A stretch of DNA of 64,000 nucleotides from Candidatus Syntropharchaeum butanivorans (GTDB taxonomy: Archaea > Halobacteriota > Syntropharchaeia > Syntropharchaeales > Syntropharchaeaceae): assembly GCA_001766825.1 (NCBI GenBank), contig LYOR01000001.1, positions 287,746-351,745 on the forward strand, given 5' to 3'. The notes under the pieces are model-generated. The model made no database searches and was not told the origin of the DNA. It worked only from the letters and a program-made list of their open reading frames with translations. A program made the position numbers and the translations under genes. This document shows positions 2,603 to 64,000 of the stretch, one piece after another. Numbering within the stretch: the first letter of the stretch is position 1; every line of letters begins with the position of its first letter.

Positions 2603-5600
2603 TCATGTTCCCCTGCTCATCCACTCCCTCACATAATCATCCGATCCAAGATCAAGCCGCGGGATGCGCTCGGTTGAGACCTTCTTGAGAACTCCGAAGA
2701 ACTCCTCCTCCACCCGTGCTTTTGCAGCCTCATCCCTGCCCTCAACCCTGCATATTACCATGGGCTGGGTGTTCGACTTCCTGATCAACGCCTGGCCCAC
2801 CCAGCCCTTATCATCGTACCACCTTATGATTCCACCATCCGTCCTATCGATCTCAAACCCCATTGCTTCAAAGATCTCAAGCGCCTTTCTCACAACCTCC
2901 TCCTTCTCATCGAGGTGGTTTGTAGGGAGCCTTATATTAATCTCAGGGGTTGCAGGGTATCTCGGGACCTCCTCGTCAAGATCGATGAACGTCCTGCCAC
3001 GCCGTTTTGCCTTTGCAATAACACTCAGGATCTTCACCGCTGCAAGTGTCCCATCATCAAACATCCAGTTCTCCTCCTGTCCTGACATCTGATGCCCTGA
3101 AAGCTCTGCTGCAAGAACCACTCCCTCCTCCCCCTTCTCCTTTGAGGCCAGGTATATCTCCTTCATCCGCTCCTTTATGAAGGCAAATCCAGTTGGAGAC
3201 ATGATATAGATCCCTCCATGGGAGGTTATAAACTCCTCAGTGACCCTTGAGAACTTTACCTCTCCCATAAACCTGGGAACCTTTCCCTTCTTCCTGTACT
3301 CCTCTATTATATCCTTTGCCTGGATTGCAAGCGTCCTATCTCCCTCAACGACCCTGCCATCTGATCTCACAAATATCACCCGATCCCCATCCTCATCATG
3401 ACCGAACCCAACGACCTCCTTCTCCTTCTCGCTCTCAGCAACCTTAACAGTTAACTCCTCAAGCTGTCTCCGGTACTTCGCCTTTATTGGATCTGGATGG
3501 TGTGCCGGAAACCTACCATCAGGTGTCTCATTAAGCCCCACGACCTCACAGCCCAGGTTCAGATATACGCTCTTTGTTCTCCACGTGGACCCGTTCCCGA
3601 AGTCTATAACTACCTTAAGACCATCAAGCGGGGCAGCAACCGCGGTCTCCGGCATCTCAATCTCATCCGGTATCCTGAGCCTCTTTTTGATCTCCTGCCA
3701 CCGCTTACCATCTGCTTTTCCTGGAAACTCGATTTCTGCCAGTGTATCAAGGAGTTCTTTCAGATCCCACTCCCTCAAGAGGTGTATCCATATCTCCCGC
3801 CCCAGCCTGCAGTTTGATTCAACGAGAAGGTTGTGATACCGGGGGATAAGCCCATCCTTGACCTTAACACGCTCCCCCTTTCCATAGAGAAAGTCAGATC
3901 CGAGGATTATCCGTTTTATCTCAAGCATCTGGTCTGCATTTATGCTCATTATAAACTCATCGTCGCTTCTTATCACCTGCTTGAGCCCGTTGTAGATTGC
4001 CTCATTGTGGGATGCTGTTATATTTATCCCACCATCTGCATGAAGGAAGGGGATTGCAAAGTAAAGTTCAGGGGTTGAGGTTATCCCGATATCATAGACG
4101 TTGACCCCACTTGAGCGGATCCCATCGATCAATGCCTTTCTTATCCGTTCTGTCGAGAGCCTTATCCCCCCTCCAACACATACCCAGTGCTCACTCTCCT
4201 CTCCCCTCTCACGCCTGAGGTACGTACCATACCCCTTTCCAAGGTAGTAGCATATCCTGTCCGGAAGCATCGTCTCAGGGGCCCTGACATCGTATGTCTG
4301 GAAGATCACAGGGTCTATATGCGAGGGGGTGCGAAGGTACGACTTTAAGACCTTCCCGTTTGATCTGAGCATGTATGAGGTGATTGAGGCAGGAATGAGA
4401 GCCGTCTCACCTGTGCTTAACCGCTCTTTCCTCCCATTATACTCGATCTCAGCCTCTCCTTCGATACACGTCAGCGTGTGGAATGATCCCTTCGTCTCCT
4501 GCAGACCGCTTGATGCGAGAGAGAGTGTGAAATAAACCGTATCAAGGAGCACGGTCTCACCATCAATCTCCCTTGGAGTCTGCTTCAGGCTCTCTGCATC
4601 CTGGTCGGTGATAGATACAAGACATGCCTTATCGAGATGGGTCTCTCGCTGCCGTCCCCAGTCCCAGACCCGGTAGGTGAGGTCAGAGGACTCCTGTATC
4701 TCAAAAAGATGGGTCCCCGCACCTATCGCATGTAGCGTTCCTGGGGGAACGAGAAAGACGTCCCCTTTCTTGATCTCAACCCCGTGGAGAACGTCCTCAC
4801 AGATCTCAGAAAGATCAGCGATCTGTCTTCTCAGAGAGAGGTATATCTTTGCACCCGGCTCTGCATCTATCACGTACCATCCTTCTGTCTTTCCGGGTTC
4901 AGGCTCTCCAAGCCGTGCTGCATCATCATCTGATGGATGCACCTGGACAGAGAGGTTCTCCCTTGCATAGATGAACTTGAGGATTACAGGAAACTCCCCC
5001 CTGAAATCTCTGTAGAGTTGATCCCCGATAATCTCCTCCCCCCGGTGGTTCAGGAGATGAATAAGCGATACATCGATCTCACCTACCTTTATCATCGATG
5101 GATTTTTTGGATGGCCCGAGCAGATCCAGGACTCGCTGCCCCATGGCTTTTCAAGGGTTGAGCCGCTCAGCCTTATGACTGAGCGGCTTAACTGCTCGAA
5201 TTTATCCCCGAGATTGAGCCTCCAGTATCTCTCCCAGGTCTCCCTCTCTCGAAGTGTATCATCGATTGGGACATCTCTCATGAGATGCTCAAGCTCACGG
5301 TATGAGTAAGGATTTGGAAGAAGTCTCATGTCCCAATCCTTCTTCCCGTCCCGTAGAATCCCCCTTTTCATCCTGATCTTACCTTTCATCGGGTGAAAGA
5401 GATCAGCAACCACGTTCTCATCCCCAAGATCAAACCCTGAAAGCTCGATGCAGTTGTAAATAAGGGACTTATTACCGCTAACACCCCTTATCATACTCGA
5501 TATTACGACGCATTCATTGAGATCTGAGTCCTCAACCCTGCTATCAACGACGACACACCCCCTGAGCATGCCTTCGACCTCAGAACCAATGATCCCGGAG

Positions 5601-6664
5601 CTATCTGCCCTGAAGAACGCTCGCATCACCTCCCCCTCCTCTGTATCCTGCGTGAGCTTGAGGAGGTGCTCGTGGTAGAGTATGGGCTGTCCGAGGTCCC
5701 ACCAGTACGTACCTGCTCCCATATCCTTATCACCGAAGATCGCACCTTTTGAGTCGAACCTCTTTATAAGCGGCTCAACCCGCGCTCGCTTCTCAGGCTC
5801 AACCCTGTCAGGAGATGTGAGTGGCATCCAGAGATCAGGGTCTGTATCAAGCTTCCTTCGCTCCTCCAGGTCCTTCTTAAACTCAGATAGAACCTCAATG
5901 AAGAACTCGTATGATATTGAGAAGCACCCAAGTCCCTTACCAATTATAATCCGTCCATCCTCCTGTTTTATCACACCATCCTCAACCAAACGCTCAAACT
6001 CATCCCAGCTCTGCTTCTCAAGCATCATACACCCATCTTCTCTCGGAATCACAAGACCATACGCCTGCCATTCACGCTCCCATTCCTCACGAGTATCTGG
6101 AGCAGGCTTTCTTATCGTGAAGAGCTCAACATGATGCTTCCCCTCAAACTCCACATCACCCGAGGGGATGAAGATCTGATCTGCCCAGAATACACATATC
6201 CGCCCTTTTCTGGATGGTGCAAATATCGAGGACTGGTATATCACCGCCTCAAGCAGCCGCATCGGGACCTTTCTTCCAGAAAGATTGAGAAGTCCGGGAA
6301 GTTTAATACCCGCCTTATCATTTCCCTCAGATTGAACAAGCGGTGCCATCCGTTTCCCATACCCTGCGGTGTGATAGATTGCAATCTTCCCCCCTTGCCT
6401 GAGAAGTGATTCGAGATCCTCATACGCTGAGACCTTCTCCCACGCGTTCAACGTGCCAAGAAGCTGTCCAGCCTCCCACTCCTCAACAACACAGTATATC
6501 CTCGCATCTTTACCGATGATCTGATCCTTCACAGCCTCAAGTCTCTCCTTCCAGAATGCTGCCTGTTTATCACTCGATGTGACGATAATGACCAGATCAA
6601 ACCCCTCAGATCCCTGGATGATCTCATCCATCCGCTGGATGTGGGTATAATAGCAGGTGCTCAT
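2603..6664 (-). CDS. three-domain sugar-activation fusion: N-terminal nucleotidyltransferase-like domain + type I phosphomannose isomerase + phosphomanno/phosphoglucomutase
   Basis: Single 1353-aa ORF. Residues ~500-780 carry PMI cupin motifs (EKPWGSESW, LSVQVHPSDD, GKTEGWYVIDAEPGA, PPGTLHAIG). Residues ~785-1353 carry alpha-D-phosphohexomutase motifs (GGINITASHNEAIYNGLK with the catalytic Ser, AAELSGHQM). Residues 1-480 (DLVIIVTSSDKQAAFWKERLE, FWADQIFIPSGD) resemble the fucose-1-P guanylyltransferase-type pyrophosphorylase domain. Confidence 0.8.
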   Translation of the reverse strand: MSTCYYTHIQRMDEIIQGSEGFDLVIIVTSSDKQAAFWKERLEAVKDQIIGKDARIYCVVEEWEAGQLLGTLNAWEKVSAYEDLESLLRQGGKIAIYHTAGYGKRMAPLVQSEGNDKAGIKLPGLLNLSGRKVPMRLLEAVIYQSSIFAPSRKGRICVFWADQIFIPSGDVEFEGKHHVELFTIRKPAPDTREEWEREWQAYGLVIPREDGCMMLEKQSWDEFERLVEDGVIKQEDGRIIIGKGLGCFSISYEFFIEVLSEFKKDLEERRKLDTDPDLWMPLTSPDRVEPEKRARVEPLIKRFDSKGAIFGDKDMGAGTYWWDLGQPILYHEHLLKLTQDTEEGEVMRAFFRADSSGIIGSEVEGMLRGCVVVDSRVEDSDLNECVVISSMIRGVSGNKSLIYNCIELSGFDLGDENVVADLFHPMKGKIRMKRGILRDGKKDWDMRLLPNPYSYRELEHLMRDVPIDDTLRERETWERYWRLNLGDKFEQLSRSVIRLSGSTLEKPWGSESWICSGHPKNPSMIKVGEIDVSLIHLLNHRGEEIIGDQLYRDFRGEFPVILKFIYARENLSVQVHPSDDDAARLGEPEPGKTEGWYVIDAEPGAKIYLSLRRQIADLSEICEDVLHGVEIKKGDVFLVPPGTLHAIGAGTHLFEIQESSDLTYRVWDWGRQRETHLDKACLVSITDQDAESLKQTPREIDGETVLLDTVYFTLSLASSGLQETKGSFHTLTCIEGEAEIEYNGRKERLSTGETALIPASITSYMLRSNGKVLKSYLRTPSHIDPVIFQTYDVRAPETMLPDRICYYLGKGYGTYLRRERGEESEHWVCVGGGIRLSTERIRKALIDGIRSSGVNVYDIGITSTPELYFAIPFLHADGGINITASHNEAIYNGLKQVIRSDDEFIMSINADQMLEIKRIILGSDFLYGKGERVKVKDGLIPRYHNLLVESNCRLGREIWIHLLREWDLKELLDTLAEIEFPGKADGKRWQEIKKRLRIPDEIEMPETAVAAPLDGLKVVIDFGNGSTWRTKSVYLNLGCEVVGLNETPDGRFPAHHPDPIKAKYRRQLEELTVKVAESEKEKEVVGFGHDEDGDRVIFVRSDGRVVEGDRTLAIQAKDIIEEYRKKGKVPRFMGEVKFSRVTEEFITSHGGIYIMSPTGFAFIKERMKEIYLASKEKGEEGVVLAAELSGHQMSGQEENWMFDDGTLAAVKILSVIAKAKRRGRTFIDLDEEVPRYPATPEINIRLPTNHLDEKEEVVRKALEIFEAMGFEIDRTDGGIIRWYDDKGWVGQALIRKSNTQPMVICRVEGRDEAAKARVEEEFFGVLKKVSTERIPRLDLGSDDYVREWMSRGT

Positions 6665-6800: not shown

Positions 6801-7187
6801 TTAAGTCTTTTCTCTTATAAAGAGTATATGGGTATTGCTCCAGGGCAGGGCCTCCTCTACCCCCATATAATCCTCTCTGCACTCATCACATAGATCCCTG
6901 AGTGATATTGAACCAACCTCTGACGTCCCGGGTATCGTTGAAGCATAAATTATCTCAGGGTCGAGCTCAAGCTCTGCTGCCGCCTCTCTGAGAGTCGGGG
7001 TGATCTTTGGCGCGAAGATCTCCACCTCCTCCATCTCAAGCCCTGCAGTAAAGATCGTGATGCCGGTGCATCCGCAGGCAAAAGAGGATGCACTGAGCTG
7101 TACAACCCAGACCGTTCTCCCTGTGAGCCTGCCAAGCTCCTTCTCAATCGAAGCTCTCCACTCAAGAAGTTTCGCCGGGAGTTTCAA
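6801..7187 (-). CDS. hypothetical Cys-containing protein, last gene of the McrA-like operon
   Basis: 128-aa ORF whose start overlaps the stop of the upstream U32-like gene by 26 nt. It contains CGC and CDEC motifs. No family recognised, and the start is uncertain. Confidence 0.45.
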   Translation of the reverse strand: MKLPAKLLEWRASIEKELGRLTGRTVWVVQLSASSFACGCTGITIFTAGLEMEEVEIFAPKITPTLREAAAELELDPEIIYASTIPGTSEVGSISLRDLCDECREDYMGVEEALPWSNTHILFIREKT

Positions 7188-8214
7188 TCTGTTTCATCTC
7201 CTCCCATGCTGTTCCTTTTCCAACGTAAACCCTCATAACGCGCGCTGCCAGATCCCTGCAGAACCCGCACCTGTGACAGATCTTATCACACCGTTTCCAC
7301 CGCTCCAGTGCGCCATCAAGCTCCTCGTTCGGGATGTAGAATAAGCTCCGCATGCTGCGCGAGTAGTCCAGGATGTTCAGGAGATTGCCGTGATAGCTCC
7401 GCTCTTTATAAGCTGCTATCGTCTCAATTATCCAGCTTACAGGCTGATTTCTACCACTTATCTTGAATGTATCGATCCCTATCTCCTCATAGGCTCCAAG
7501 GTCCTCTGGTCTCACCCAGTTTGCCTTCATGATAAGCCAGGGTTTCTTCACCCTCAATGACCTGCATCTTCGCTGGTAATAGCTGAATGAAATTCTCGGG
7601 TGGGGTGGGGGGCCTGATGTGTGGGATACAACGTTGAAGTCAAAAGGCCTGAACGGGCACTTGTAAAGGCACCCCTCGTTCACAAGAATCCTTATCTCAC
7701 AGGAGACAGCATCCACAATCGCTTCAAGCAGGCGAAAGTCCCTGTTTATACTCGTGTCAGGTGTGATTGCATCTGCCCCAAGCTCCTCATAGAATATGGC
7801 CTTCTCTGGAGAGTCCACAAATGAGATACATGATACAACCACATCGAATGAGAAGTTTTTCGATGCCACCTCGATCAGGTAGGGGTCAGCAAGTGTCACC
7901 GCATCAACACCACATGATGCAAGATCCTCAAAGTATCGCATGTAGAGATTTATACCCTCATCGGTGAGGTGTTTTCCACCCACACACGAGGCGTTCATCA
8001 GGACGTTTATCCTCACACCATGCCGGTGGCAAAGCTCGGTCTGACGCTCTATGAGATCGTGATCATGAGGTGCTTCCCCAAGCCCCTGCCTTCCCGTGGA
8101 TACGTAATCGGATGATCCTGCAATATATACCTCATAAAGGTCGCCTGATCTCGCCTCCAATATCTCCTTAGTCCCGTCAAGGTGCCCGGGCAGTGGTGCA
8201 CAGAGCTTCATCAA
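7162..8214 (-). CDS. peptidase U32 family protein (Fe-S-type, UbiU/RlhA/TrhP-like fold family)
   Basis: 350-aa ORF, colinear by eye with U32 proteins. Matching blocks are N-terminal KLCAPLPG...EVYIAG (cf. ELLCPAG...DAVYIG), GVDAVTLADPYLIE, VNEGCLYKCPF and TFKISGRNQP (cf. KIEGRQRSP). It also has a C-terminal CDKICHRCGFC Cys cluster. Confidence 0.75.
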   Translation of the reverse strand: MMKLCAPLPGHLDGTKEILEARSGDLYEVYIAGSSDYVSTGRQGLGEAPHDHDLIERQTELCHRHGVRINVLMNASCVGGKHLTDEGINLYMRYFEDLASCGVDAVTLADPYLIEVASKNFSFDVVVSCISFVDSPEKAIFYEELGADAITPDTSINRDFRLLEAIVDAVSCEIRILVNEGCLYKCPFRPFDFNVVSHTSGPPPHPRISFSYYQRRCRSLRVKKPWLIMKANWVRPEDLGAYEEIGIDTFKISGRNQPVSWIIETIAAYKERSYHGNLLNILDYSRSMRSLFYIPNEELDGALERWKRCDKICHRCGFCRDLAARVMRVYVGKGTAWEEMKQIETPGETS

Positions 8215-8250
8215 AAGGGTCCAGGCAAAAATAAGGGGAAAAATAAAGAT

Positions 8251-8847
8251 TCAGGGGTGGCCATCTGGCCACATCATCGCCCTTACTTCCTTCCCGAGAT
8301 CATCATCACACTCGGTCTTCCAGCGCTTACCGTGTGCGAGCATGATGATATCCTTGAAATCGATCATCGCCGTCATGTTACCTCTCAGCACCGGGCCACC
8401 GTAAATCTCGTTGATCTTTCCGCTATCACAGATCGGATCTGTCGGCCTCTTCTCCCCAAGCAGGATCTTCACCAGGTCGTAGTAGTCGATCCTGAAGATG
8501 CTGTCGACCTCAACACCTGATCCAGGCTCAGGTTCACCCTTTCTTATCCCACCGGGGGATATCATGAACCTGTTGTACTCAAGCCCTCGCTCAGGGTGCC
8601 AGGTCTCGATGAGGATCGATCTGGGCGGGAACCTCGAGGATACGATCGTACACTTCGGGTTTGGCACGATCATGTTGACGTAGAAGTCAAAGAGCAGCTC
8701 GTAAGATGTTGGCTCGTGGTCCTTCACCTGGATCCAGTCAACGTCCTTCCACCACCCATCAGGCAGGGGCGGTGTTGGGAGGAAGTGCCCAGGTTGATTC
8801 TCATAGTCTGTGGGTGCAACCTCTCCATAGTACACCATCGACATCAC
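8251..8847 (-). CDS. hypothetical protein with a possible SCP2-like C-terminal segment; McrA-like operon member
   Basis: 198-aa ORF starting 6 nt after the McrA-like stop. It has no McrG/McrC/McrD motifs. The C-terminal DSIFRIDYYDLVKILLGEKRPTDPICDSGKI...LRGNMTAMIDFKDI loosely follows the SCP2 pattern (D..l..s..dl.kll.Gkl.p..Af..GKl...Gdm..a.k). Confidence 0.6.
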   Translation of the reverse strand: MMSMVYYGEVAPTDYENQPGHFLPTPPLPDGWWKDVDWIQVKDHEPTSYELLFDFYVNMIVPNPKCTIVSSRFPPRSILIETWHPERGLEYNRFMISPGGIRKGEPEPGSGVEVDSIFRIDYYDLVKILLGEKRPTDPICDSGKINEIYGGPVLRGNMTAMIDFKDIIMLAHGKRWKTECDDDLGKEVRAMMWPDGHP

Positions 8848-8853
8848 CTCCTC

Positions 8854-10725
8854 TTATCGCGCGGGTCTGATGAGGTCCCGCTCACCTGCAGGCTCATACT
8901 CCTTCGCAGCGCCCTTCGCGATGCAGAGCCTCACGTTCTTGAAGTCGAATGTAGAGTCAGGATCTGCAAATGCGACCTTAACCAGCGGGCTTGCACACCA
9001 TGAAGAACCCCTGCCGATCATAGCAGCGTATGTCCCGGTCACGTACCCCGGCGTGTGTGTTGCGGTGTATGAGAACATCGGATAGTTGGCCCCTCGAAGC
9101 TCCGGGAGTCCACCCTCCTCGATCCTGAGAGATGGCCCGTATGGAAGCCCTGCATGTGCCTGGACCTCCTGGCCTCCGAACCCGGTCCTGAGCCACCCCT
9201 CCTTCATGAGGAGTGAGACGACATAGTTCTGGACCATCATACCCATGAGCGAGTCGCCTGTCAGCAGGGATGCAAATGAGTTCGAGATTGCAGACGTGAT
9301 GAAGCATCTGATCGCACCACCCCAGTGAAGCTCCTGGAGTGTCGGATACTTCTCGTATGTCTCCATGAGATACAGGGCTGCGATCTCACCGAACCCCTTT
9401 GCGCAGTCCCAGGTGTCCGGTACACGTTCATGCCCCTCAAAGTTGTAGTAGCAGAGCTCGGTGAACCTGTTTAGCCAGTCATCCAGGATGTTACCGAGAT
9501 ACAGGTACGCGAACGCGGGGAACCCGACCCCGCCTGACATGTAGATACCATACCATACCGCATCAATCTGTGCCCCAACTGCGGCAGACTCAAGGACCGC
9601 TTGGGTCAGATCCTTTCCAAGCTGCATATCCCGATCAATGGAGACGACCTTGAGCCATGGCGTGTTCGGCATCTCCTTCTCCGCACAGCACATATCTGAC
9701 CAGTAACCGATCGGGATTCCACCGGGCTCATTCGGCGCATTTGTCCTTGAGAGCCACGTAGCAAGCCCCATGTGAATCGCCTGGGCGTGCCTCGTTGCGA
9801 AGGATATATCAGAGAGGACAGACTCACCTGTGAGTTTGTATGCAGCCACGAATGACATTGTCACCGCGATCGCAGCACTCCTGATCACAGCAGCGCCGTT
9901 TGTCATCCTCACCCTGAGTGTGTGGGTTCTGATCGTATTAAAGAGCCTGTTTCCGATCATCTCATTCAGAGGTTCAGCCCGTGTTGGATGGAACTCCTTA
10001 TCAATATTGAGCACCCATCTCCTGTCAAACTGATCCCGAAGGTCCGGGTTACCGGTTATGATCTTTGCATATGCATCTGTGACAAGCCCGGGATGTGTCT
10101 CTGCCATGTGCTCCTGGACAACCGCACCACCTGCAAGCACATGTTGGATCGTCTCCATGTAGAGGTTCATCGACTCAGGGGAGATCTCCTTACCGAGCCT
10201 GAGCTGGATGACCCGGTGTGGGACATCAAGCCCCATGATCACGGTCTTTCTCATGTCGTCCATCATCTGCTGGATTGCGCAGTTGTTGTAGACCGAGAAG
10301 TCATCATAATCCACGATGTAATCCGTGTTTGAGACAAGAACAGGCTCATAATATCGCTGGCCAAGCGGGATACCCATCTCACGGTTGTACTGTGGGATTC
10401 CACGCTCGATCGCGATCTTCTTACCCCATTCAACCCACATCCGCTTTGACCTGGACTGCTGGACACCACCATGCCGGTAGGATTGTTTATCCACGGTATC
10501 CATCGGCTCGCCCTCAAAGAGCGTGTGGAGCGCTTTGTACATCTCCCGCTGGCGCTCCACAGGCATGAACTGATCTTTCAGTTTCAGCGGATCGTACTGA
10601 TATGCAAGCTCCGTGGAAATGACAGTACCCTCTGTGACCTTGTGGAAGAGCTGATCCCGGTACCCTTCTGCAACCTCCTCAAGTGATGCTGGCTTTGCAC
10701 CAGCCTTCTTCTTCTTTTTTGCCAA
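8854..10725 (-). CDS. divergent methyl/alkyl-coenzyme M reductase alpha-subunit (McrA) homologue
   Basis: 623-aa ORF with a TTG start preceded by GGAGGTGAGGTGA. By-eye alignment to McrA is colinear over ~530 aa. Shared blocks are RGIPQYN, PLGQR, NNxAxQQMxDDxRKTVI, RLGKExxPE, GGAVVQEHMAETHP (axial-ligand Gln), AIHMG, NEPGGIPxGY, YMSGGVGF...NILDD, ELRGANYP, PLVKVAFADPD..FDF and EPAGERDLIRPA. Confidence 0.9.
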   Translation of the reverse strand: MAKKKKKAGAKPASLEEVAEGYRDQLFHKVTEGTVISTELAYQYDPLKLKDQFMPVERQREMYKALHTLFEGEPMDTVDKQSYRHGGVQQSRSKRMWVEWGKKIAIERGIPQYNREMGIPLGQRYYEPVLVSNTDYIVDYDDFSVYNNCAIQQMMDDMRKTVIMGLDVPHRVIQLRLGKEISPESMNLYMETIQHVLAGGAVVQEHMAETHPGLVTDAYAKIITGNPDLRDQFDRRWVLNIDKEFHPTRAEPLNEMIGNRLFNTIRTHTLRVRMTNGAAVIRSAAIAVTMSFVAAYKLTGESVLSDISFATRHAQAIHMGLATWLSRTNAPNEPGGIPIGYWSDMCCAEKEMPNTPWLKVVSIDRDMQLGKDLTQAVLESAAVGAQIDAVWYGIYMSGGVGFPAFAYLYLGNILDDWLNRFTELCYYNFEGHERVPDTWDCAKGFGEIAALYLMETYEKYPTLQELHWGGAIRCFITSAISNSFASLLTGDSLMGMMVQNYVVSLLMKEGWLRTGFGGQEVQAHAGLPYGPSLRIEEGGLPELRGANYPMFSYTATHTPGYVTGTYAAMIGRGSSWCASPLVKVAFADPDSTFDFKNVRLCIAKGAAKEYEPAGERDLIRPAR

Positions 10726-10762
10726 TTCACCTCACCTCCATAATTTTATAAAAATAAAAAAA

Positions 10763-11314
10763 TTACTTAAGCCCCCAGCGCCTGAGCTCATACTCCGCGG
10801 GATTCCCGTGCCCCTTGCCCTCAGGGGTGATCCCGTACTGATCAAGCTCATCCTGGGTGGGTTTGTACCCTTCTTTCTCGATCTTCTCCACGATCGCCAC
10901 ATACCCTGGCGGAGCCCTTGGCTCGCCATGCTCCTCGATCCAGCCAAACATCTTCCCCTCATTGGTGAACTTCTCCGCAGGCAACCTCAGGTTGTTCGTC
11001 CCAGGCTCAACCACCGGTACGTCACACCATCCTTCCCATCTCACCCACTTGTGACCATTCTCGCAGGTGTAGACGTAAAGTGGTGTTGCCTCCCCTCCAT
11101 AGACCATTGCCTTTGCCTTCGTCGTCTTTGGGCCAAGGAACCGCCCGGCATCAGGGACGTACGTGTAAAGCGGCTCCTTGTTCACGATCTTTGCCTTGCA
11201 TGCCGGTATATTATATATATCGTTATCAAAGCCGGAATGTGGACAGAGCTTGTCCACGTTTACCATACCATTCTCAATGATCTTCTTGGTAACGCTGTAA
11301 TCTATCGGCGGCAT
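10763..11314 (-). CDS. hypothetical protein (4 Cys), McrA-like operon member
   Basis: 183-aa ORF, 3 nt after the 375-aa gene and 37 nt before the McrA-like gene. Cys residues occur at CPHSG, PAC, TCENGH and GWC. I find no resemblance to McrG, McrC or McrD. Confidence 0.6.
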   Translation of the reverse strand: MPPIDYSVTKKIIENGMVNVDKLCPHSGFDNDIYNIPACKAKIVNKEPLYTYVPDAGRFLGPKTTKAKAMVYGGEATPLYVYTCENGHKWVRWEGWCDVPVVEPGTNNLRLPAEKFTNEGKMFGWIEEHGEPRAPPGYVAIVEKIEKEGYKPTQDELDQYGITPEGKGHGNPAEYELRRWGLK

Positions 11315-11317
11315 CTT

Positions 11318-12445
11318 TCACACCTCCTCCATCATCCACTCGGGATGCTCCTTCCTTGCTTTATATATGATCTCAGTGGCATCCCTGTGCGAGACCACAG
11401 TCTTTGCCGGGAGTGGATACTCTGTTGGATGCTGGACCCTTGCCTCCTCACCATAGATGTACTTGGACTGCTTGAACGTATCCGGGAAGACGTACCTGTC
11501 CATACCATACCTTATAATCCGCCTTGCGGTCTCCTCTGGAGTGCATGGAACGATCTCCATACCCTCTATCTCAAGGTGTATCTCATGTGGTGAGATCGTG
11601 TACTTGCTGGACCAGTTATCACCCAGAATCAGCGCGTTCCACCTCCAGTTGAAGATATCAGGCGGATTTTCCACGAGAAGCTCAAGCCCCACTGGCCTTG
11701 GTAGCTCATCGCAGGTTGACTTGAAGGGCCAGCCCATCTTCTCACAGTTGAAGAACGGGTACATCCCCATGACCGCGTCCATCGTGGATCTTGAGGGGAA
11801 AGCCTCGTTGTACCCGTGATGGGACTGCCAGCATCCCTGATGGTATGCAGACATCGCATACTCCGGAGTATCCTCGTTTCTGACATCCATCAGGATATCT
11901 CTGATGAGCATCACAGCCTCAAACGCTGGGTAGGAGTATGGGAGATCTCTCACCGGTTTTCCAACCTTCATGTGCTTCCGCTCAATAAGCTCCTGCCCCT
12001 CACCTGGATCCGTCATCGCGATGTACGTCATCACACCATCCTCGTAGTGGTACGAGACGGTATGAGGGTTTGCCCTCCCTGAGAAGTTATCTGATTGCAG
12101 CCAGCATAGATCGAGGGACTTGCCGAATAACGCAATCGTTGCCGCAGGATCAAGCGGAACAGCCGCGGAGTAACAGGGTGGATAACCAAGTGTAACGGTT
12201 GTTTTATCCGGGTCTGTCAGAAGCCCCTGGGTCCAGAGATTGACCGTCTGAGAGGATTCAAGCATCCCGATCCTCCACCACTGTGAGACCTCGGTCTGCC
12301 GATACTTATCAAGCGCCTGTGTAAGCTTGAGTGGGGTCTCACGCTTCGGGTCCCCGGGTCTTCCGACCACATGCGTCTCAAACATCCACCGCTCATACGC
12401 CCATTCCTCTGTGAAATCGTGATGCGGCCTTCCTATCTTCTCCAT
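11318..12445 (-). CDS. hypothetical protein, first gene of the McrA-like operon
   Basis: 375-aa ORF with an ATG start and GGAGG 7 nt upstream. It is Trp/aromatic-rich. The McrB hallmarks as I remember them (e.g. the C-terminal Gly-rich SIYGGGGPG block) are absent. No family recognised. Confidence 0.65.
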   Translation of the reverse strand: MEKIGRPHHDFTEEWAYERWMFETHVVGRPGDPKRETPLKLTQALDKYRQTEVSQWWRIGMLESSQTVNLWTQGLLTDPDKTTVTLGYPPCYSAAVPLDPAATIALFGKSLDLCWLQSDNFSGRANPHTVSYHYEDGVMTYIAMTDPGEGQELIERKHMKVGKPVRDLPYSYPAFEAVMLIRDILMDVRNEDTPEYAMSAYHQGCWQSHHGYNEAFPSRSTMDAVMGMYPFFNCEKMGWPFKSTCDELPRPVGLELLVENPPDIFNWRWNALILGDNWSSKYTISPHEIHLEIEGMEIVPCTPEETARRIIRYGMDRYVFPDTFKQSKYIYGEEARVQHPTEYPLPAKTVVSHRDATEIIYKARKEHPEWMMEEV

Positions 12446-33450: not shown

Positions 33451-34302
33451 ATGAAGATAAGTAAAGTAATGAATAGCACGGGGTTAATCAGGCTGATCCT
33501 TCTTGCAATCGGGATTATAGGAGTGACCTTTCTGGTGATGCCCCAGACGGTCTCGCTATTTGCAGGTCAGCATACGTGGTACAATCTATCAGGTGAGGCA
33601 AACGATCTACCATGTGAGAAGTGTCATGGGGATGTTTACGAGGAGATGATGAGTATGGAGCCGTTGAGTAAGAAACTTGCAGGTCAATCCAGTTCGCCGC
33701 ATAGTTATATGGACGAGAACTGTGAACTGTGCCACCGCACCTGTTTCAACAACACATTCAGTTGGAGCTCCGGCAAGTATGAGAAATCACCAGGATTCAC
33801 TTATGCTAGTGGCAGTGGAACGGGTTCAACACCCGGTGTGGAAGCTCATGCAGCCTCCATAATAGAATGCATGGACTGTCATGGTATCCCTGCGGATGAT
33901 GGATACTGGGAACACTGGAGCTATGCTGAATACAGTAGTCGGTGTTTCCTCTGCCATGGAGGTTCCGGATGGTATCGTGGACACTATATTACAATTCCCA
34001 GCAGGGGTTGGAGTGATTTCATCTCAGCAGGTGGTTTCGGGCTTGGTACAACCGAGACAGACACAGGTGAGAAAGCGGCACACAGGCAGTTCGTCCTTGA
34101 TGCCATCAACAACTCCCTCATGGAAGATGCGAACGAAGCTTGCATCGCATGTCACACAGAAAACCAGGTTCGGATGGAGTTTAATGTATCAACCGGGGTC
34201 ATAATCACGGTGAATAACTCATACACACAGACATCCTCGTACTGGAGCGTGAGTGATATCACACCATCAAATTATACGACGTATGTGGAGGTTAAGAGCT
34301 GA
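33451..34302 (+). CDS. membrane-anchored pentahaem c-type cytochrome
   Basis: 283 aa with an N-terminal TM helix and five CxxCH motifs (CEKCH, CELCH, CMDCH, CFLCH, CIACH). Confidence 0.85.
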   Translation: MKISKVMNSTGLIRLILLAIGIIGVTFLVMPQTVSLFAGQHTWYNLSGEANDLPCEKCHGDVYEEMMSMEPLSKKLAGQSSSPHSYMDENCELCHRTCFNNTFSWSSGKYEKSPGFTYASGSGTGSTPGVEAHAASIIECMDCHGIPADDGYWEHWSYAEYSSRCFLCHGGSGWYRGHYITIPSRGWSDFISAGGFGLGTTETDTGEKAAHRQFVLDAINNSLMEDANEACIACHTENQVRMEFNVSTGVIITVNNSYTQTSSYWSVSDITPSNYTTYVEVKS

Positions 34303-35543
34303 TGAGAAGGGAGATCCTCTTCATTGCATTCATCTTCGCGATCGCAGCCGTTATTCTCTACACATCCACAGATACCGTCTCACTCTTTGCAGGTCAGCAC
34401 ACCTTTATCGCAATCTCTGATTCAGGAAACCAGATCAACTGCACCTGGTGCCATTCAAGAATAAACAGTGAGCTTTCAAACTCCTCTCTCCACGAGGACC
34501 TGAGCTGTGAGGCATGCCACAGATATAACGGCACAGGAATTACGTTTGCATCAGGGGATACCTCGGGATCAACCCCTGGAAATGAATCCCATGCCGCGTA
34601 TGTACCTCGCTGTCTTGATTGTCATGACAGTGACGGGGCATGGATTGAGAACAGGACCGGGAGCCTGAAATATGCACCGCCTGCAAAGGCGTTCAGCGAA
34701 CCTGATCACGGGACAGATTACTCCGCACATAAGCGATTTGTGCTTGAAGCAAATGCATCAGATGCAAGCCCTGGTGAGAATGAGGCGTGTCTTGCGTGTC
34801 ATACAGATTATACAGTCAGTCTGAGCTACAGCTACTTCTGGAACATTGGTTATACACTTTCATCATGGAGCTTCACGAGCTTTTCATACAACGGCACAAG
34901 GAACTACAATATTAAGTGGAGCAAATCCGGGGCAAAGCATGAGTTTGTCAGCCTTAACAGTATAGACTGTACAGGATGCCATAAAAACATCTATGATGCG
35001 CTTGTCATTGGTACAGATGGGGGTTCAAACGAGGATTACCTGACGCACGCACCGGTGGAGATTGACGCCAGTCACTGGGATACGGATAACCCCTGGGGGC
35101 ATTACAGATACCATTACATCCCGGCTTCAAACAGAGCTACATGGGTCAACAGTACATACTGCCTGAAGTGTCACAACGTGACTGAATACGCGTCTGAGCA
35201 TCCATCGGATAATACGACCTACAGCTTGGCTGATGTGAGCATGGACACAAACTCAACCTCAGTCCACTGTGCTGAGGCTTTAACATGTGCAACATGCCAT
35301 GGCAGCGGGAAGACGAAGGCGGTTATAGATAATCCAGAGAGAAGTGGAACAGGACACAGCGGATCAAGCTTTGTCGATAACATCGCCTCAAATTATGCAA
35401 GAACCTTCAACGGTGATATATGTATGGGCTGTCATGAGGCGGCGGTACATCCACAGAGCATGGGATGTAGTAGATGCCACTCAAAGGGAAATGTGGATGT
35501 TACGATCGAATCAGAGCCATCAGGATATTGTACGAATAACTGA
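34302..35543 (+). CDS. membrane-anchored nonahaem c-type cytochrome (paralogue of the preceding gene)
   Basis: 413 aa with an N-terminal TM helix and nine CxxCH motifs (CTWCH, CEACH, CLDCH, CLACH, CTGCH, CLKCH, CATCH, CMGCH, CSRCH). The start overlaps the upstream stop (ATGA). Confidence 0.85.
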   Translation: MRREILFIAFIFAIAAVILYTSTDTVSLFAGQHTFIAISDSGNQINCTWCHSRINSELSNSSLHEDLSCEACHRYNGTGITFASGDTSGSTPGNESHAAYVPRCLDCHDSDGAWIENRTGSLKYAPPAKAFSEPDHGTDYSAHKRFVLEANASDASPGENEACLACHTDYTVSLSYSYFWNIGYTLSSWSFTSFSYNGTRNYNIKWSKSGAKHEFVSLNSIDCTGCHKNIYDALVIGTDGGSNEDYLTHAPVEIDASHWDTDNPWGHYRYHYIPASNRATWVNSTYCLKCHNVTEYASEHPSDNTTYSLADVSMDTNSTSVHCAEALTCATCHGSGKTKAVIDNPERSGTGHSGSSFVDNIASNYARTFNGDICMGCHEAAVHPQSMGCSRCHSKGNVDVTIESEPSGYCTNN

Positions 35544-37467: not shown

Positions 37468-38604
37468 GTGAGAATGGAGTATGGAGAGGTGTGTGAGACA
37501 GAATGGGGGGATGAGCTTGGGAAGAATATCTCTACAATAGAGGAGCTAAAAGCACATGTTAAGCTATCGCCAAGGGAGGAAAAACAGCTTCGGAAGGTGA
37601 TAGAGAGACATCCGATGAGTATCAGCAGATATTATCTTTCTTTGATAGATTGGACCGATCCTGACGATCCGATAAGAAGAATGGCGGTTCCTCGAAGTGA
37701 GGAGCTTGTTCTTGCAGGCTCTTATGATACGAGCGGTGAGCTTGAGAATACGAAACTGCCAGGTCTGCAGCATAAGTATGCTCAGACCGCCCTCATCCTG
37801 GCGACAAACAGGTGTGCAATGTACTGCAGGCACTGTTTCAGGAAGAGAATGGTTGGTATCACGGAGGATGAGGTGATACACCGATTTGAGATGGCGGTGA
37901 GCTATATCCGGGAGCATGAGGAGATCAATAATGTCTTGATCACCGGTGGTGACCCTTTCATACTGTCATCTGAGACCATTGGAAGGATGCTTGAGATGCT
38001 CTCAGATATTGAGCATCTCGATTTTATCAGGTTTGGGACGAGGGTTCCTGTAACGTTCCCTGATCGGATCATCCATGATGATGGATTGCTCGATCTGTTG
38101 AGGCTCTACTCGGATGATGAGAGAAGAATCTATGTCGTGACCCAGTTCAACCATCCGAGGGAGATAACACCGCAATCGATATCTGCTGTTGATAGCCTGA
38201 TCCGTTCTGAGGTTATCGTTAATAACCAGGCGGTTCTGCTCAGGGGCGTGAATGACGATCCGGAGACGATGGCAGAGCTTCAGAACCGGCTCGTTGCTAT
38301 CGGTGTTAACCCCTATTACGTCTTCCAGTGCAGACCTGTGAAGCGGGTTAAGCATCACTTCCAGGTCCCGCTATACAGAGGTTATGAGATCATTGAAGCT
38401 GCTAAAAAGAGGTTAAATGGACACAGCAAGCGGTTCAAGTATATCATGTCCCATAAAACAGGGAAGATAGAGATTGTAGGTATAATTGGTGATGAGATCT
38501 ATCTCAAGTATCATCAGGCGAAGAACCCGAGGAATATCGGAAAATTCTTCAAACGAAGATTGAACAAAACGGCAGGATGGCTGGATGAGCTGGATCGTAT
38601 CTGA
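37468..38604 (+). CDS. KamA-family radical SAM aminomutase (lysine 2,3-aminomutase-like)
   Basis: Contains TNRCAMYCRHCFRKR (CxxxCxxC), ITGGDPF and VTQFNHPRE. The start may be ATG at 37474. Confidence 0.8.
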   Translation: MRMEYGEVCETEWGDELGKNISTIEELKAHVKLSPREEKQLRKVIERHPMSISRYYLSLIDWTDPDDPIRRMAVPRSEELVLAGSYDTSGELENTKLPGLQHKYAQTALILATNRCAMYCRHCFRKRMVGITEDEVIHRFEMAVSYIREHEEINNVLITGGDPFILSSETIGRMLEMLSDIEHLDFIRFGTRVPVTFPDRIIHDDGLLDLLRLYSDDERRIYVVTQFNHPREITPQSISAVDSLIRSEVIVNNQAVLLRGVNDDPETMAELQNRLVAIGVNPYYVFQCRPVKRVKHHFQVPLYRGYEIIEAAKKRLNGHSKRFKYIMSHKTGKIEIVGIIGDEIYLKYHQAKNPRNIGKFFKRRLNKTAGWLDELDRI

Positions 38605-40487: not shown

Positions 40488-41549
40488 ATGATAATCGCAA
40501 AGAAAGAGCTTAAAGGCCTTCTGAACGAGAAGACACTCATCCTTGCTCTGCTGATTCAGCTTTTTATCGCATCGTTCTCCTCATTCCTCGTCCTCGGCCT
40601 CGTCTCGCTCTACAACCCCGGGGTACTCGAGGATTATAACCTCAAAGGAGCAACAATCGGAGTTGTTGGGGATTCTAAGGGGCTTCTGACAGGATTTATT
40701 AGACTGGATGGGAAGCTCAGAGTGTTCAGCTTTGAGGATATCAAAACAGCAGAAGATGCGTTCTTCAGGGGTAAGATAGACGGGATACTCGTGGTTCCTG
40801 ATACACCTCCTGAGGGAGATGAGCCGATCCAGCTTGAACTTTATCTCCCGAAAAACAGCATAAAGGCGACTGTTATCATGGTTCAGCTCAAAGAACCACT
40901 TGAACGATTCGAGAAATGGATCCGGGAGGTCAGAGGGGTTGAGATACCAGAGATAAACCTCGATCTACCGGAGGGGGTGGACAGTGGTAAGAAGAGATCG
41001 ACCGCCTTCTTCGAGTTTATATATGGACTTCTCATACCGCTACTCATGCTCACACCAGCTTTCATATCAGGTGGCTTAATGATCGACCTTGTGACAGAGG
41101 AGATTGACAGAAAGACGCTCGATATGCTGCTTGTATCACCGATTGGGCGGGCTGAGATACTCGATGGGAAGCTGCTTGTTGCAACCCTGATTGCACCCCT
41201 CCAGGCTTTATGCTGGCTGAGCCTCATGAGATTAAATGGCATTGAGATCCAGAACATTCTCTTAACGCTGTTGATCGTACTTGCGGTAACAGCGGTTTTC
41301 ACCCTGATCTGTGCGATATTATCTGTGAGGTTGGCCCATCGAGGAAACGTCCAGCTTCTGTACTCACTCTTTCTCGTAGTGCTCTTCGCAGCGACATACA
41401 CATTCCCTGTGATGCCGTTTAATCTGGTAACACGGCTTACAGCAGGAAGCAATGGAGCATCCCAGGATGCGATCTTTGTCCTTGTAACGTATGCACTCCT
41501 TGCAGCTCTTCTATATGCACTTCTTCGAAGAAGCCTGAAACCTCAGTGA
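40488..41549 (+). CDS. ABC-2-type transporter permease (NatB-like)
   Basis: MIIAKKELKGLLNEKT... and EEIDRKTLDMLLVSPIGRAEILDGKLL are typical of ABC-2 permeases. The start is set at ATG 40488, 5 nt after the upstream stop. Confidence 0.65.
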   Translation: MIIAKKELKGLLNEKTLILALLIQLFIASFSSFLVLGLVSLYNPGVLEDYNLKGATIGVVGDSKGLLTGFIRLDGKLRVFSFEDIKTAEDAFFRGKIDGILVVPDTPPEGDEPIQLELYLPKNSIKATVIMVQLKEPLERFEKWIREVRGVEIPEINLDLPEGVDSGKKRSTAFFEFIYGLLIPLLMLTPAFISGGLMIDLVTEEIDRKTLDMLLVSPIGRAEILDGKLLVATLIAPLQALCWLSLMRLNGIEIQNILLTLLIVLAVTAVFTLICAILSVRLAHRGNVQLLYSLFLVVLFAATYTFPVMPFNLVTRLTAGSNGASQDAIFVLVTYALLAALLYALLRRSLKPQ

Positions 41550-58772: not shown

Positions 58773-58777
58773 ATGAA

Positions 58778-60949: not shown

Positions 60950-60955
60950 TTATTT

Positions 60956-62828: not shown

Positions 62829-62832
62829 AGCT

Positions 62833-63948: not shown

Positions 63949-64000
63949 TTTTGTTCTTTCAGAAAGTCAAGCAAGCTCGCTATAGACGTTGATAGTCTCT

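What the first reader, a model, noticed from the sequence alone, without database searches (positions are those of the whole stretch)
9148..9789. Active-site and modification-site residues of the McrA homologue are selectively rewired
I aligned by eye to Methanothermobacter marburgensis McrA, recalled from memory. The numbering was checked for internal consistency against the known positions H257, R271, F330, Y333, Q400, F443, G445, D450 and C452.

Retained residues:
- axial Gln147 -> Q204 (VVQEHM)
- His257 -> H313
- Arg271 -> R327
- Phe330 -> F402
- Phe443 -> F516
- thioglycine site Gly445 -> G518

Changed residues:
- Tyr333 -> F405 (GVGFTQY becomes GVGFPAF)
- Gln400 -> I472 (FGGSQR becomes WGGAIR)
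- Tyr444 -> G517
- Tyr446 -> Q519
- Asp450 -> A523
- Cys452 -> A525 (FYGYDLQDQCG becomes FGGQEVQAHAG)

There is also a ~16-aa insertion between the NEPGG and YMSGGVGF blocks (residues ~350-392). The cofactor-ligating core is kept. The Tyr hydroxyl that flanks the CoM/substrate site and several canonical post-translational modification sites are lost. That pattern is what a changed substrate or mechanism would produce, rather than decay.
Basis: partly seen in the sequence, partly recalled or inferred. Interest (0 to 1): 0.72.

Follow-up and report, generated by a model that had tools for sequence, protein, structure and literature searches.

The report
Known butane-activating alkyl-CoM reductase alpha subunit
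The gene is the already published alpha subunit of the butane-activating, methane-enzyme-like reductase of the archaeon Candidatus Syntrophoarchaeum butanivorans, and its altered active-site residues are the shared signature of that whole enzyme group rather than a new rewiring.

Summary
Window 8854-10725 (-) encodes a 623-aa McrA homologue. It keeps Q147, H257, R271, F330, F443 and G445 (M. marburgensis numbering). It has Y333F, Q400I, Y444G, Y446Q, D450A, C452A and a 16-17-aa insertion.

The protein is 623/623 identical to OFV67021.1, the alpha subunit of the most highly expressed alkyl-CoM reductase (ACR) of Ca. Syntrophoarchaeum butanivorans. A 2022 review aligned and modelled that protein.

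The substitution set is clade-wide. In 29 ACR-clade homologues (Syntropharchaeia, Alkanophaga, Bathyarchaeota BA2, Hel-/Lokiarchaeota), Y333, Q400 and Y444 are never kept. Y446Q and D447E occur in 29/29, and N481T in 28/29. All 90 canonical McrAs keep the canonical residues.

Only F at 333, A at 450 and retained F443 are specific to this lineage. dN/dS of 0.09-0.13 excludes decay.

Verdict: an accurate observation of an already known enzyme; low interest.

A side lead remains. acrA sits in a tight six-gene operon with unannotated partners that recur next to ACRs: a 375-aa protein with no known family, a small Cys-rich protein and an SCP2-fold protein, followed by a U32-family protein and a DUF5402 protein.

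The parts
8854..10725 (-). acrA/mcrA: alpha subunit of alkyl-coenzyme M reductase, 623 aa, TTG start; identical to OFV67021.1 of Ca. Syntrophoarchaeum butanivorans
   Evidence: ORF. Pfam MCR_alpha_N + MCR_alpha. PDB MCR alpha hits at 1e-131 to 1e-88. 623/623 identity to P0121 = OFV67021.1. TIGR03256 score 482.7, below the equivalog cut-off of 767.75.
9148..9789 (-).
   Evidence: Translation gives HAQAIHMG...GFGGQEVQAHAG.
10114..10116 (-).
   Evidence: Q in 28/29 ACR-clade and 90/90 canonical sequences.
9745..9789 (-). H313 (= His257, N1-methyl-His site) to R327 (= Arg271, 5-methyl-Arg site), both kept
   Evidence: R in 29/29 and H in 22/29 ACR-clade sequences.
9607..9657 (-). Roughly 17-aa insertion (about W357-L373, WLKVVSIDRDMQLGKDL) between NEPGG and YMSGG; net +16 aa
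   Evidence: An insertion of similar length is present in every ACR-clade homologue aligned, so it is clade-wide.
9511..9522 (-). F402-P-A-F405: Phe330 kept, Gln332->Ala, Tyr333->Phe. Phe at 333 is seen only in this lineage; other ACRs have Ala/Gly/Thr.
   Evidence: Position 333 in the ACR clade: A19 G5 T3 F1. Canonical: Y90.
9310..9315 (-). A471-I472: Ser399->Ala, Gln400->Ile (2-methyl-Gln site lost)
   Evidence: Position 400 in the ACR clade: H15 I7 L5 V2. The replacement is noted in PMC9118554.
9151..9180 (-). F516-G-G-Q-E-V-Q-A-H-A525: Phe443 kept, Tyr444->Gly, thioglycine-site Gly445 kept, Tyr446->Gln, Asp447->Glu, Asp450->Ala, Cys452->Ala
9064..9066 (-).
   Evidence: T in 28/29 ACR-clade sequences; N in 89/90 canonical sequences.
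11318..12445 (-). Gene 'X': 375-aa conserved protein with no known family, first gene of the operon.
   Evidence: No Pfam, NCBIfam or PDB sequence match. 42% identical to the unannotated gene beside the Alkanophaga acrA. Found between acrG and acrA in L008. Only 74 representatives among 1.84 billion proteins.
10763..11314 (-). Gene 'Y': 183-aa Cys-rich small protein (conserved CP...C.AK...CE.GH..VRP..WADVP); possible zinc-binding protein
8251..8847 (-). Gene 'Z': 198-aa SCP2-fold protein immediately downstream of acrA
   Evidence: AlphaFold2 model with pLDDT 70.3. Foldseek top hits are all SCP2, UbiJ-SCP2 or alkylsulfatase C-terminal domains. hhalign probability 99.8% to the Pfam-SCP2 protein beside the Bathyarchaeota BA2 McrA. 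34% identical to the gene downstream of acrA in L008.
7162..8214 (-). U32-family ('peptidase U32') protein, 350 aa, Cys-rich C-terminus
   Evidence: Pfam PF01136 at 42.4 bits against a cut-off of 22.4. Related to M. kandleri Mk0906, PDB 5D88, 1.7e-21. Same position in L001 and L005.
6801..7187 (-). DUF5402 protein, 128 aa; overlaps the end of the U32 gene by 26 bp
   Evidence: Pfam PF17393, 4.9e-25.

Best explanation
Window 8854-10725 (-) is acrA (annotated mcrA) of Candidatus Syntrophoarchaeum butanivorans. It encodes the alpha subunit of an alkyl-coenzyme M reductase (ACR).

By homology with methyl-CoM reductase, the protein should sit in an alpha2-beta2-gamma2 complex with cofactor F430. 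It should run the MCR reaction in reverse on a larger alkane: butane plus the CoM-S-S-CoB heterodisulfide gives butyl-S-CoM plus HS-CoB.

The alpha subunit keeps what the chemistry needs:
- the axial Gln ligand of nickel
- the N1-methyl-His, 5-methyl-Arg and thioglycine positions
- the Phe330 and Phe443 aromatic wall

It replaces polar residues that pack tightly round the methyl group, CoM and the F430 edge in methane enzymes. These are Tyr333, Gln400, Tyr444, Tyr446, Asp447, Asn481 and Ser399; the replacements are smaller and/or non-polar, or (Asp447->Glu) conservative. The variable modification sites Gln400, Asp450 and Cys452 are also replaced. Together with a 1-aa loop deletion, an insertion of about 17 aa and an N-terminal extension, this is the common architecture of the multi-carbon ACR clade. 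It is not a private feature of this gene.

Shown here: identity, conservation, selection and clade-wide distribution.
Inferred from homology and the literature: the butane reaction, a larger and more hydrophobic pocket, and which modifications are actually installed.

The beta and gamma subunits are encoded elsewhere in the genome.
For: - Domains and structural homologues.
- 100% identity to OFV67021.1 of Ca. S. butanivorans.
- The review PMC9118554 names OFV67021.1/OFV66073.1/OFV66072.1 as the most expressed MCR of that organism. It describes the Gln400 replacement, extra coenzyme-site substitutions in Syntrophoarchaeum homologues, and the 239-246 loop deletion that opens a cleft.
- Butyl-CoM formation in the culture, and 'three of four ACR gene sets in operons' in S. 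butanivorans: PMC9081873.
- The closest Alkanophaga relative (P0005, 55% identity) has the gene context of the highly expressed acrA that is also separated from acrBG.
- Residue table across 29 ACR-clade and 90 canonical proteins.
- Purifying selection, dN/dS 0.09-0.13.
- The score falls below the canonical McrA equivalog cut-off (482.7 < 767.75).
- A YcaO thioamidation-type gene lies next to the Alkanophaga orthologue, which fits the invariant Gly445.
- Tyr333 hydrogen-bonds methyl-CoM in MCR: PMC13359103.
Against: - No biochemical assay or structure exists for this ACR, so substrate assignment rests on culture-level metabolites and expression reported by others.
- The organism has four ACR sets, and which one acts on butane is not proven.
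- No acrB or acrG is present anywhere in the 64-kb window, so complex formation with OFV66073.1/OFV66072.1 could not be checked here.
- I could not measure pocket volume. The claim of a larger, more hydrophobic pocket is an inference from residue types.
- In this lineage position 333 is Phe, not a small residue. The pocket may therefore be less enlarged than in other ACRs.
Confidence: 0.9

Rival explanations
1. Lineage-specific tuning. On top of the clade-wide ACR signature, the three residues specific to S. butanivorans and its closest relatives set the pocket for short C3-C4 alkanes. These residues are Phe at 333 (instead of Ala/Gly/Thr), Ala at 450, and Phe kept at 443 (instead of Trp). This would distinguish the enzyme from the mid- and long-chain ACRs. 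It is the part of the reader's 'selective rewiring' idea that could survive.
For: - F at 333 and A at 450 occur only in WIN, P0001 and P0002.
- F443 is kept in 4/29 ACR-clade sequences against W in 25/29.
- Alkanophaga (C5-C15 alkanes, PMC10322722) has Ala333 and Trp443.
- These positions belong to the aromatic ring round the substrate in MCR (my knowledge of Ermler et al. 1997).
Against: - This is a correlation across only two cultivated lineages.
- The same organism has three more ACRs that I could not compare.
- There is no structural or mutational test.
- The differences could be neutral within a tolerant pocket.
Confidence: 0.3
2. A canonical methane-forming or methane-oxidising MCR alpha subunit whose differences are ordinary lineage variation.
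For: Full-length similarity to methanogen McrA at 40-43% identity, with E-values down to 1e-131 against PDB MCR chains.
Against: - It fails the NCBIfam McrA equivalog cut-off.
- It lacks seven residues that are kept in 86-90 of 90 canonical McrAs.
- Its nearest relatives are all ACR-clade proteins.
- The organism is a butane oxidiser.
Confidence: 0.02
3. A decaying or non-catalytic paralogue left behind after separation from acrBG.
For: acrB and acrG are absent from the window. Several modification sites are lost.
Against: - The 623-aa ORF is intact.
- dN/dS is 0.09-0.13.
- The F430 ligand, Arg271 and Gly445 are invariant.
- It is reported as the most expressed MCR homologue.
- The orthologous separated acrA in Alkanophaga is among the top expressed genes.
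Confidence: 0.02

Closest known systems
OFV67021.1, McrA/AcrA of Candidatus Syntrophoarchaeum butanivorans ('group d' in Lemaire & Wagner 2022)
   Same: Identical over all 623 residues. It has the same orphan position away from its beta/gamma genes, as the literature describes.
   Different: Nothing at the protein level. A second public assembly (L001) differs by one residue in the part compared (A13V).
Highly expressed 'third-cluster' AcrA of Ca. Alkanophaga (P0005; Zehnle et al. 2023)
   Same: - 55% identity and the same clade signature: Q400->L, Y444G, Y446Q, D447E, N481T, the same insertion and N-terminal extension.
- It is also separated from acrBG and preceded by homologues of the unannotated genes X and Y.
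   Different: - It has Ala333, Trp443, Asp450 and Ile452.
- Its substrates are C5-C15 alkanes.
- A YcaO gene lies between X and acrA.
- No SCP2-like or U32 gene lies downstream.
Ethyl-CoM reductase of Ca. Ethanoperedens thermophilum (PDB 7B1S), the only solved multi-carbon ACR
   Same: It has the same fold and an F430-dependent alpha2-beta2-gamma2 enzyme that activates a non-methane alkane.
   Different: - It is the most distant PDB match (299.6 bits, against 443 bits for methanogen MCR).
- It keeps 2-methyl-Gln, S-methyl-Cys, methyl-Arg and thioglycine.
- It uses Met as the axial ligand and dimethyl-F430.
- It has its own insertions that form a 33-Angstrom gas tunnel.
- The window protein keeps the Gln axial ligand and lacks Gln400 and Cys452.
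Methyl-CoM reductase I alpha subunit of Methanothermobacter marburgensis (PDB 3POT/5A0Y)
   Same: It has the same two domains and about 41% identity. Gln147, His257, Arg271, Phe330, Phe443 and Gly445 are conserved.
   Different: - Substitutions: Y333F, Q332A, S399A, Q400I, Y444G, Y446Q, D447E, D450A, C452A, N481T.
- Length changes: +16-17 aa insertion, -1 aa in loop 239-246, about +55 aa at the N-terminus.

Membership tests
MCR/ACR alpha-subunit superfamily | Both Pfam domains, MCR_alpha_N (PF02745) and MCR_alpha (PF02249), above the gathering score | tested here: met
   293.7 bits and 79.5 bits against cut-offs of 27 and 25.
MCR/ACR alpha-subunit superfamily | Axial Ni ligand (Gln147), Arg271 and Gly445 (thioglycine site) present | tested here: met
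   Q204, R327, G518.
Canonical methyl-CoM reductase alpha (NCBIfam TIGR03256 equivalog) | Score at or above the curated equivalog cut-off | tested here: not met
   482.7 bits against a cut-off of 767.75.
Canonical methyl-CoM reductase alpha | Conserved active-site residues Tyr333, Gln400, Tyr444, Tyr446, Asp447, Asn481 | tested here: not met
   F, I, G, Q, E and T respectively. These positions are canonical in 86-90 of 90 canonical McrAs.
Multi-carbon alkyl-CoM reductase (ACR) clade, alpha subunit | Nearest relatives are ACR-clade AcrAs rather than methanogen or ANME McrAs | tested here: met
   46-83% identity to Syntropharchaeia, Alkanophaga, Hel-/Lokiarchaeota and Bathyarchaeota BA2 proteins, against 40-43% to canonical McrAs. 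No formal tree was built.
Multi-carbon alkyl-CoM reductase (ACR) clade, alpha subunit | Clade signature: WGGA[IHLV]R and G[WF][GSA]GQE motifs, Thr at 481, 1-aa deletion in loop 239-246, roughly 15-17-aa insertion after NEPGG | tested here: met
   All are present. The loop deletion is described for these homologues in PMC9118554.
Multi-carbon alkyl-CoM reductase (ACR) clade, alpha subunit | Cognate beta and gamma subunit genes | tested here: not met
   None found in the 64-kb window: the ORFs flanking acrA and the largest ORFs at about 21.6-64 kb were scanned with Pfam, and the 12.6-21.2 kb stretch was checked only through the near-identical contig L001. The literature assigns OFV66073.1/OFV66072.1, encoded elsewhere. 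This is a property of the locus and does not count against family membership.
Multi-carbon alkyl-CoM reductase (ACR) clade, alpha subunit | Formation of alkyl-CoM from a C2+ alkane | not testable with these tools
   Butyl-CoM is reported for the enrichment culture (PMC9081873). There is no assay of this enzyme.
SCP2 sterol/lipid-carrier fold (for the downstream gene Z, 8251-8847) | SCP2 fold and/or a Pfam PF02036 match | tested here: inconclusive
   The fold is met. The AlphaFold2 model (pLDDT 70.3) matches SCP2 structures, E 3.5e-05, TM-score relative to target 0.55-0.73. The family profile aligns at 99.8% probability to a Pfam-positive SCP2 protein beside the BA2 McrA. The window protein itself gets no Pfam hit. 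Ligand binding was not tested.
Peptidase U32 family (for 7162-8214) | PF01136 above the gathering score; conserved 4-Cys Fe-S motif of the hydroxylase members | tested here: inconclusive
   PF01136 scores 42.4 bits against a cut-off of 22.4, but covers only residues 92-150. It is homologous to Mk0906. By eye it has CxxxC and C-terminal Cx3Cx2Cx2C motifs; these were not aligned to the published CX6CX15CX3/4C motif.

The most novel reading that the evidence does not exclude
The catalytic subunit is known, but its operon is not.

acrA is embedded in a tightly packed six-gene unit, 12445 to 6801 on the minus strand: X, Y, acrA, Z, U32, DUF5402. X (375 aa, no known family), Y (small Cys-rich protein) and Z (SCP2-fold protein) recur beside acrA in distant ACR lineages. 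Each occurs in several lineages, though not all three in every one. In one lineage they occur together with bona fide acrB and acrG, so they are extra components and not replacements.

The most novel reading is that these are ACR-specific accessory proteins. One possible role is carrying the hydrophobic alkane or alkyl-CoM to or from the enzyme, which would suit Z. [quoted passage not shown] Hydroxylation at C1 of butyl-CoM would release butanal.
Probability: 0.25. Interest if true: 0.75.

Novelty: already known. Interest (0 to 1): 0.15.

Why it matters
For the finding as given, the value is confirmatory. However, the protein is a published sequence from a cultivated butane oxidiser. Its residue pattern is the documented hallmark of alkyl-CoM reductases, so nothing new is learned about enzyme mechanism.

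Two things could still matter:
- The lineage-specific Phe333/Phe443/Ala450 combination is a cheap, testable candidate for short- versus long-chain alkane selectivity.
- The conserved unannotated neighbours (X, Y, SCP2-like Z, U32-like) are candidates for two open questions in archaeal alkane oxidation. One is how hydrophobic substrates reach the enzyme. The other is how alkyl-CoM becomes acyl-CoA, which the literature explicitly states is unknown (PMC10322722).

Tried and rejected
1. Are the flanking ORFs very divergent McrB/McrG? Rejected.
   - No Pfam, NCBIfam or PDB sequence signal.
   - The profile-profile comparison of the X family with AcrB gives 0.15% probability.
   - L008 carries genuine acrB and acrG as well as X, Y and Z.

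2. AlphaFold2 model of X from a 10-sequence alignment. It failed (mean pLDDT 38.9), so no fold search was run and the fold of X stays unknown.

3. Search of the window for acrB, acrG, ycaO, tfuA, mmp10, mcmA or the Gln methyltransferase. None was found (the 12.6-21.2 kb stretch was covered only through the precomputed annotation of the near-identical contig L001).
   - The radical-SAM gene at 37468-38604 is a KamA-family aminomutase, not Mmp10.
   - The radical-SAM/SPASM gene at 60956-62053 scores far below every curated cut-off. Its best match, a tungsten-cofactor-oxidoreductase radical-SAM maturase, reaches 164 bits against a cut-off of 380.

4. Pseudogene or decay reading. Rejected by dN/dS.

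5. Literature search for SCP2 together with ACR/Syntrophoarchaeum, and for the neighbouring accession numbers OFV67018-67024. No paper was found in the searchable library. This library lacks most subscription-journal papers, including the original Laso-Perez et al. 2016 article.

6. The pocket also needs alpha, alpha', beta, gamma and F430.
Full report
**What is there.**
The finding lies inside a 623-aa ORF on the minus strand (8854-10725, TTG start). The ORF carries both Pfam domains of the methyl-CoM reductase alpha subunit. It matches every solved MCR alpha chain in the PDB, with E-values from 1e-131 to 1e-88. The ethyl-CoM reductase 7B1S is the weakest match.

**Check of the observation.**
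I needed M. marburgensis McrA for numbering. My recalled sequence proved 100% identical to PDB 3POT_A over 550 residues, so the numbering reference is verified.

These are HMMER pairwise alignments, MAFFT L-INS-i on 44 sequences and MAFFT --auto on 122 sequences.
- Kept: Q147->Q204, H257->H313, R271->R327, F330->F402, F443->F516, G445->G518.
- Changed: Y333->F405, Q400->I472, Y444->G517, Y446->Q519, D450->A523, C452->A525.

The NEPGG-to-YMSGG distance is 58 aa against 42 aa, so the 16-aa insertion is real.

**What it is.**
A search of 5.8 billion proteins returned relatives at these identities:
- a 99%-identical protein
- an 83%-identical 'Candidatus Syntropharchaeales' protein
- a 61%-identical Syntropharchaeia protein
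- the AcrA of Ca. Alkanophaga liquidiphilum at 55%
- Bathyarchaeota BA2 McrA at 46%
- canonical methanogen McrAs at only 40-43%

[quoted passage not shown] BLASTP shows the window protein is 623/623 identical to it. The window therefore comes from this butane-oxidising archaeon or a strain with an identical gene.

The literature already covers this protein.
[quoted passage not shown] - They show an alignment of ACR coenzyme-, cofactor- and modification-site residues in M. marburgensis numbering.
[quoted passage not shown] Syntrophoarchaeum and Ca. Methanoliparia'.
- They note that a deletion in loop 239-246 opens a cleft in the models.
- PMC9081873 records butyl-CoM formation in the culture. 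[quoted passage not shown]
- Zehnle et al. [quoted passage not shown] **Is the substitution set special to this gene?**
No. I tabulated the key positions in 29 ACR-clade homologues and in 90 canonical McrAs from the same search. Named members of the ACR-clade set include Syntropharchaeia, Alkanophaga, Helarchaeota, Lokiarchaeota, Halobacteriota MAGs and Bathyarchaeota BA2.

| Position (M. marburgensis) | ACR clade (n = 29) |
|---|---|
| Tyr333 | kept in 0 (A19, G5, T3, F1) |
| Gln400 | kept in 0 (H15, I7, L5, V2) |
| Tyr444 | kept in 0 |
| Tyr446 | Gln in 29 |
| Asp447 | Glu in 29 |
| Asn481 | Thr in 28 |
| Cys452 | kept in 3 |
| Asp450 | kept in 15 |
| Gly445, Arg271 | kept in 29 |
| Gln147 | kept in 28 |

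In the canonical set every one of these positions is canonical in 83-90 of 90 sequences. The insertion, the loop deletion and the N-terminal extension are also shared by the whole clade.

Three features are specific to this lineage (window, P0001, P0002): Phe rather than a small residue at 333, Ala at 450, and Phe rather than Trp at 443.

**Not decay.**
The ORF is intact. dN/dS is 0.13 against the 99% copy and 0.086 against the 83% orthologue. The protein fails the NCBIfam equivalog cut-off for canonical McrA (482.7 against 767.75 bits). That is the expected behaviour of an ACR and not of a pseudogene.

**How it most likely works.**
By homology, the alpha subunit assembles with beta and gamma subunits encoded elsewhere and binds F430 through Gln204. 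It catalyses the reverse MCR reaction on butane: butane + CoM-S-S-CoB -> butyl-CoM + HS-CoB.
- The retained residues are the nickel ligand, the three modification sites found in all methanogen MCRs (PMC9081873) and two of the aromatic wall residues.
- The replaced residues are polar side chains that contact methyl-CoM. Tyr333 hydrogen-bonds it (PMC13359103). Others contact the F430 edge (Gln400) or line the loop round the thioglycine. Most of the replacements are smaller or apolar; Asp447->Glu is conservative.
- I infer a roomier, more hydrophobic pocket, but I could not measure it.
- Identity, conservation, selection and clade distribution are shown here. Catalysis, pocket size and the modifications actually present are inferred.

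**Surroundings.**
No acrB, acrG, ycaO, tfuA, mmp10 or mcmA was found in the window (the 12.6-21.2 kb stretch only via the precomputed annotation of the near-identical contig L001). The rest is archaeal housekeeping. It includes proteasome and exosome subunits, EF-1alpha, an intein-containing ribonucleotide reductase, CofC, multihaem cytochromes and a low-GC glycosyltransferase island.

acrA itself sits in a tightly packed run of six same-strand genes, with gaps of -26 to +37 bp (coordinates):
- X (375 aa, 11318-12445)
- Y (183 aa, 10763-11314)
- acrA
- Z (198 aa, 8251-8847)
- a U32-family protein (7162-8214)
- a DUF5402 protein (6801-7187)

**The unannotated neighbours (side lead).**
X, Y and Z have no Pfam or NCBIfam match, yet they recur beside acrA in other lineages.
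- X and Y precede the Alkanophaga orthologue (42% and 33% identity). They are listed there as unannotated in the published source data.
- X and Y precede a 61%-identical Syntropharchaeia acrA.
- In a distant lineage (L008/L009) the order is acrB-acrG-X-Y-acrA-Z. X, Y and Z therefore come in addition to the beta and gamma subunits and do not replace them.
- By gene position and size, L011 has the same layout (a 110-aa and a 405-aa gene upstream of acrA, a 171-aa gene downstream) and Bathyarchaeota BA2 (L010) has a 490-aa gene upstream. L012 has a 179-aa gene directly downstream of acrA. The L011 small protein aligns with the Y motif, but the 152-aa BA2 and 128-aa L012 small proteins do not. The gene downstream of acrA gives only sub-threshold SCP2 (L011) or alkylsulfatase-C-terminal (L012) hits.

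What can be said about each protein:
- The X family has only 74 representatives among 1.84 billion proteins. It has no Pfam domain in any member tested and no similarity to AcrB. Its AlphaFold2 model failed (pLDDT 38.9).
- Y has a conserved Cys/Cys/Cys-His pattern.
- Z gives a usable model (pLDDT 70.3). Its best PDB matches are all SCP2 lipid carriers, UbiJ-SCP2 and the alkyl-binding C-terminal domain of alkylsulfatases.
- The Z family profile matches, at 99.8% probability, a Pfam-positive SCP2 protein next to the BA2 McrA.

SCP2 next to a U32-family gene recalls UbiT + UbiU/UbiV, an oxygen-independent hydroxylase system for a hydrophobic substrate (PMC6747719). [quoted passage not shown] Lemaire & Wagner speculated about 'hydrocarbon-carrier proteins'. 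These genes are therefore reasonable candidates.

This lead is weak on two counts. It rests on gene neighbourhood and fold alone. The U32 gene accompanies acrA only in S. butanivorans and its closest relatives.

**Verdict.**
Novelty is 'already known'. Interest is low (0.15). The operon partners are the only part that might repay further work.

Noticed in passing
window 6801-12445 (-); also L001, L002, L005, L006-L009, L010, L011, L012: acrA is the third gene of a tightly packed six-gene unit: X-Y-acrA-Z-U32-DUF5402. X (375 aa, no known family), Y (small Cys-rich protein) and Z recur next to acrA in distant ACR lineages, though not all three in every locus. In L008/L009 they occur together with genuine acrB and acrG. 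The published Alkanophaga figure data list X and Y as unannotated.
   Followed up: partly
window 8251-8847 (-): The 198-aa gene directly downstream of acrA has an SCP2 (sterol/lipid carrier) fold by AlphaFold2 + Foldseek. It is homologous to SCP2-domain proteins flanking the Bathyarchaeota BA2 McrA. It may be a hydrocarbon or alkyl-CoM carrier. No paper linking SCP2 to ACRs was found in the searchable library.
   Followed up: partly
window 7162-8214 (-) and 6801-7187 (-): A U32-family protein (related to M. kandleri Mk0906, Cys-rich C-terminus) and a DUF5402 protein follow the SCP2-like gene. SCP2 + U32 is the gene pairing of the UbiT/UbiU-UbiV oxygen-independent hydroxylase. A DUF5402 gene also lies four genes upstream of a second, canonical-length McrA homologue in L006.
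   Followed up: partly
L010 9101-10465 (-), Bathyarchaeota BA2: A B12/radical-SAM protein passes the equivalog cut-off for 'methyl-coenzyme M reductase glutamine C-methyltransferase' (543.6 against 360 bits). It lies near a McrA that has His, not Gln, at position 400. The methyltransferase may act on a different residue there.
   Followed up: no
P0011-P0015, P0017, P0021 (P0013 cluster is named Helarchaeota, P0014 cluster Lokiarchaeota): Seven ACR-clade homologues have Ser instead of the otherwise invariant His257 (the N1-methyl-His site). One (P0010) has Arg instead of the axial Gln147.
   Followed up: no
window 41543-44254 (-): The ribonucleotide reductase large subunit is interrupted by an intein with a LAGLIDADG homing-endonuclease domain.
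   Followed up: no
window 33451-35543 (+): Two adjacent multihaem c-type cytochrome genes give sub-threshold Cytochrome_C7 / MtrC-MtrF-like hits. This fits electron transfer to a syntrophic sulfate-reducing partner.
   Followed up: no
window 58000-64000: G+C drops from about 0.50 to 0.40-0.44 over a cluster of glycosyltransferases, a sugar epimerase, a nucleotidyl transferase, a SAM methyltransferase and a radical-SAM/SPASM protein. This may be a horizontally acquired cell-surface glycan island.
   Followed up: no
window 2603-6664 (-): An unusually long (1353-aa) single ORF fuses mannose-6-phosphate isomerase/cupin domains with all four phosphoglucomutase/phosphomannomutase domains. It is annotated the same way in the near-identical contig L001.
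   Followed up: no
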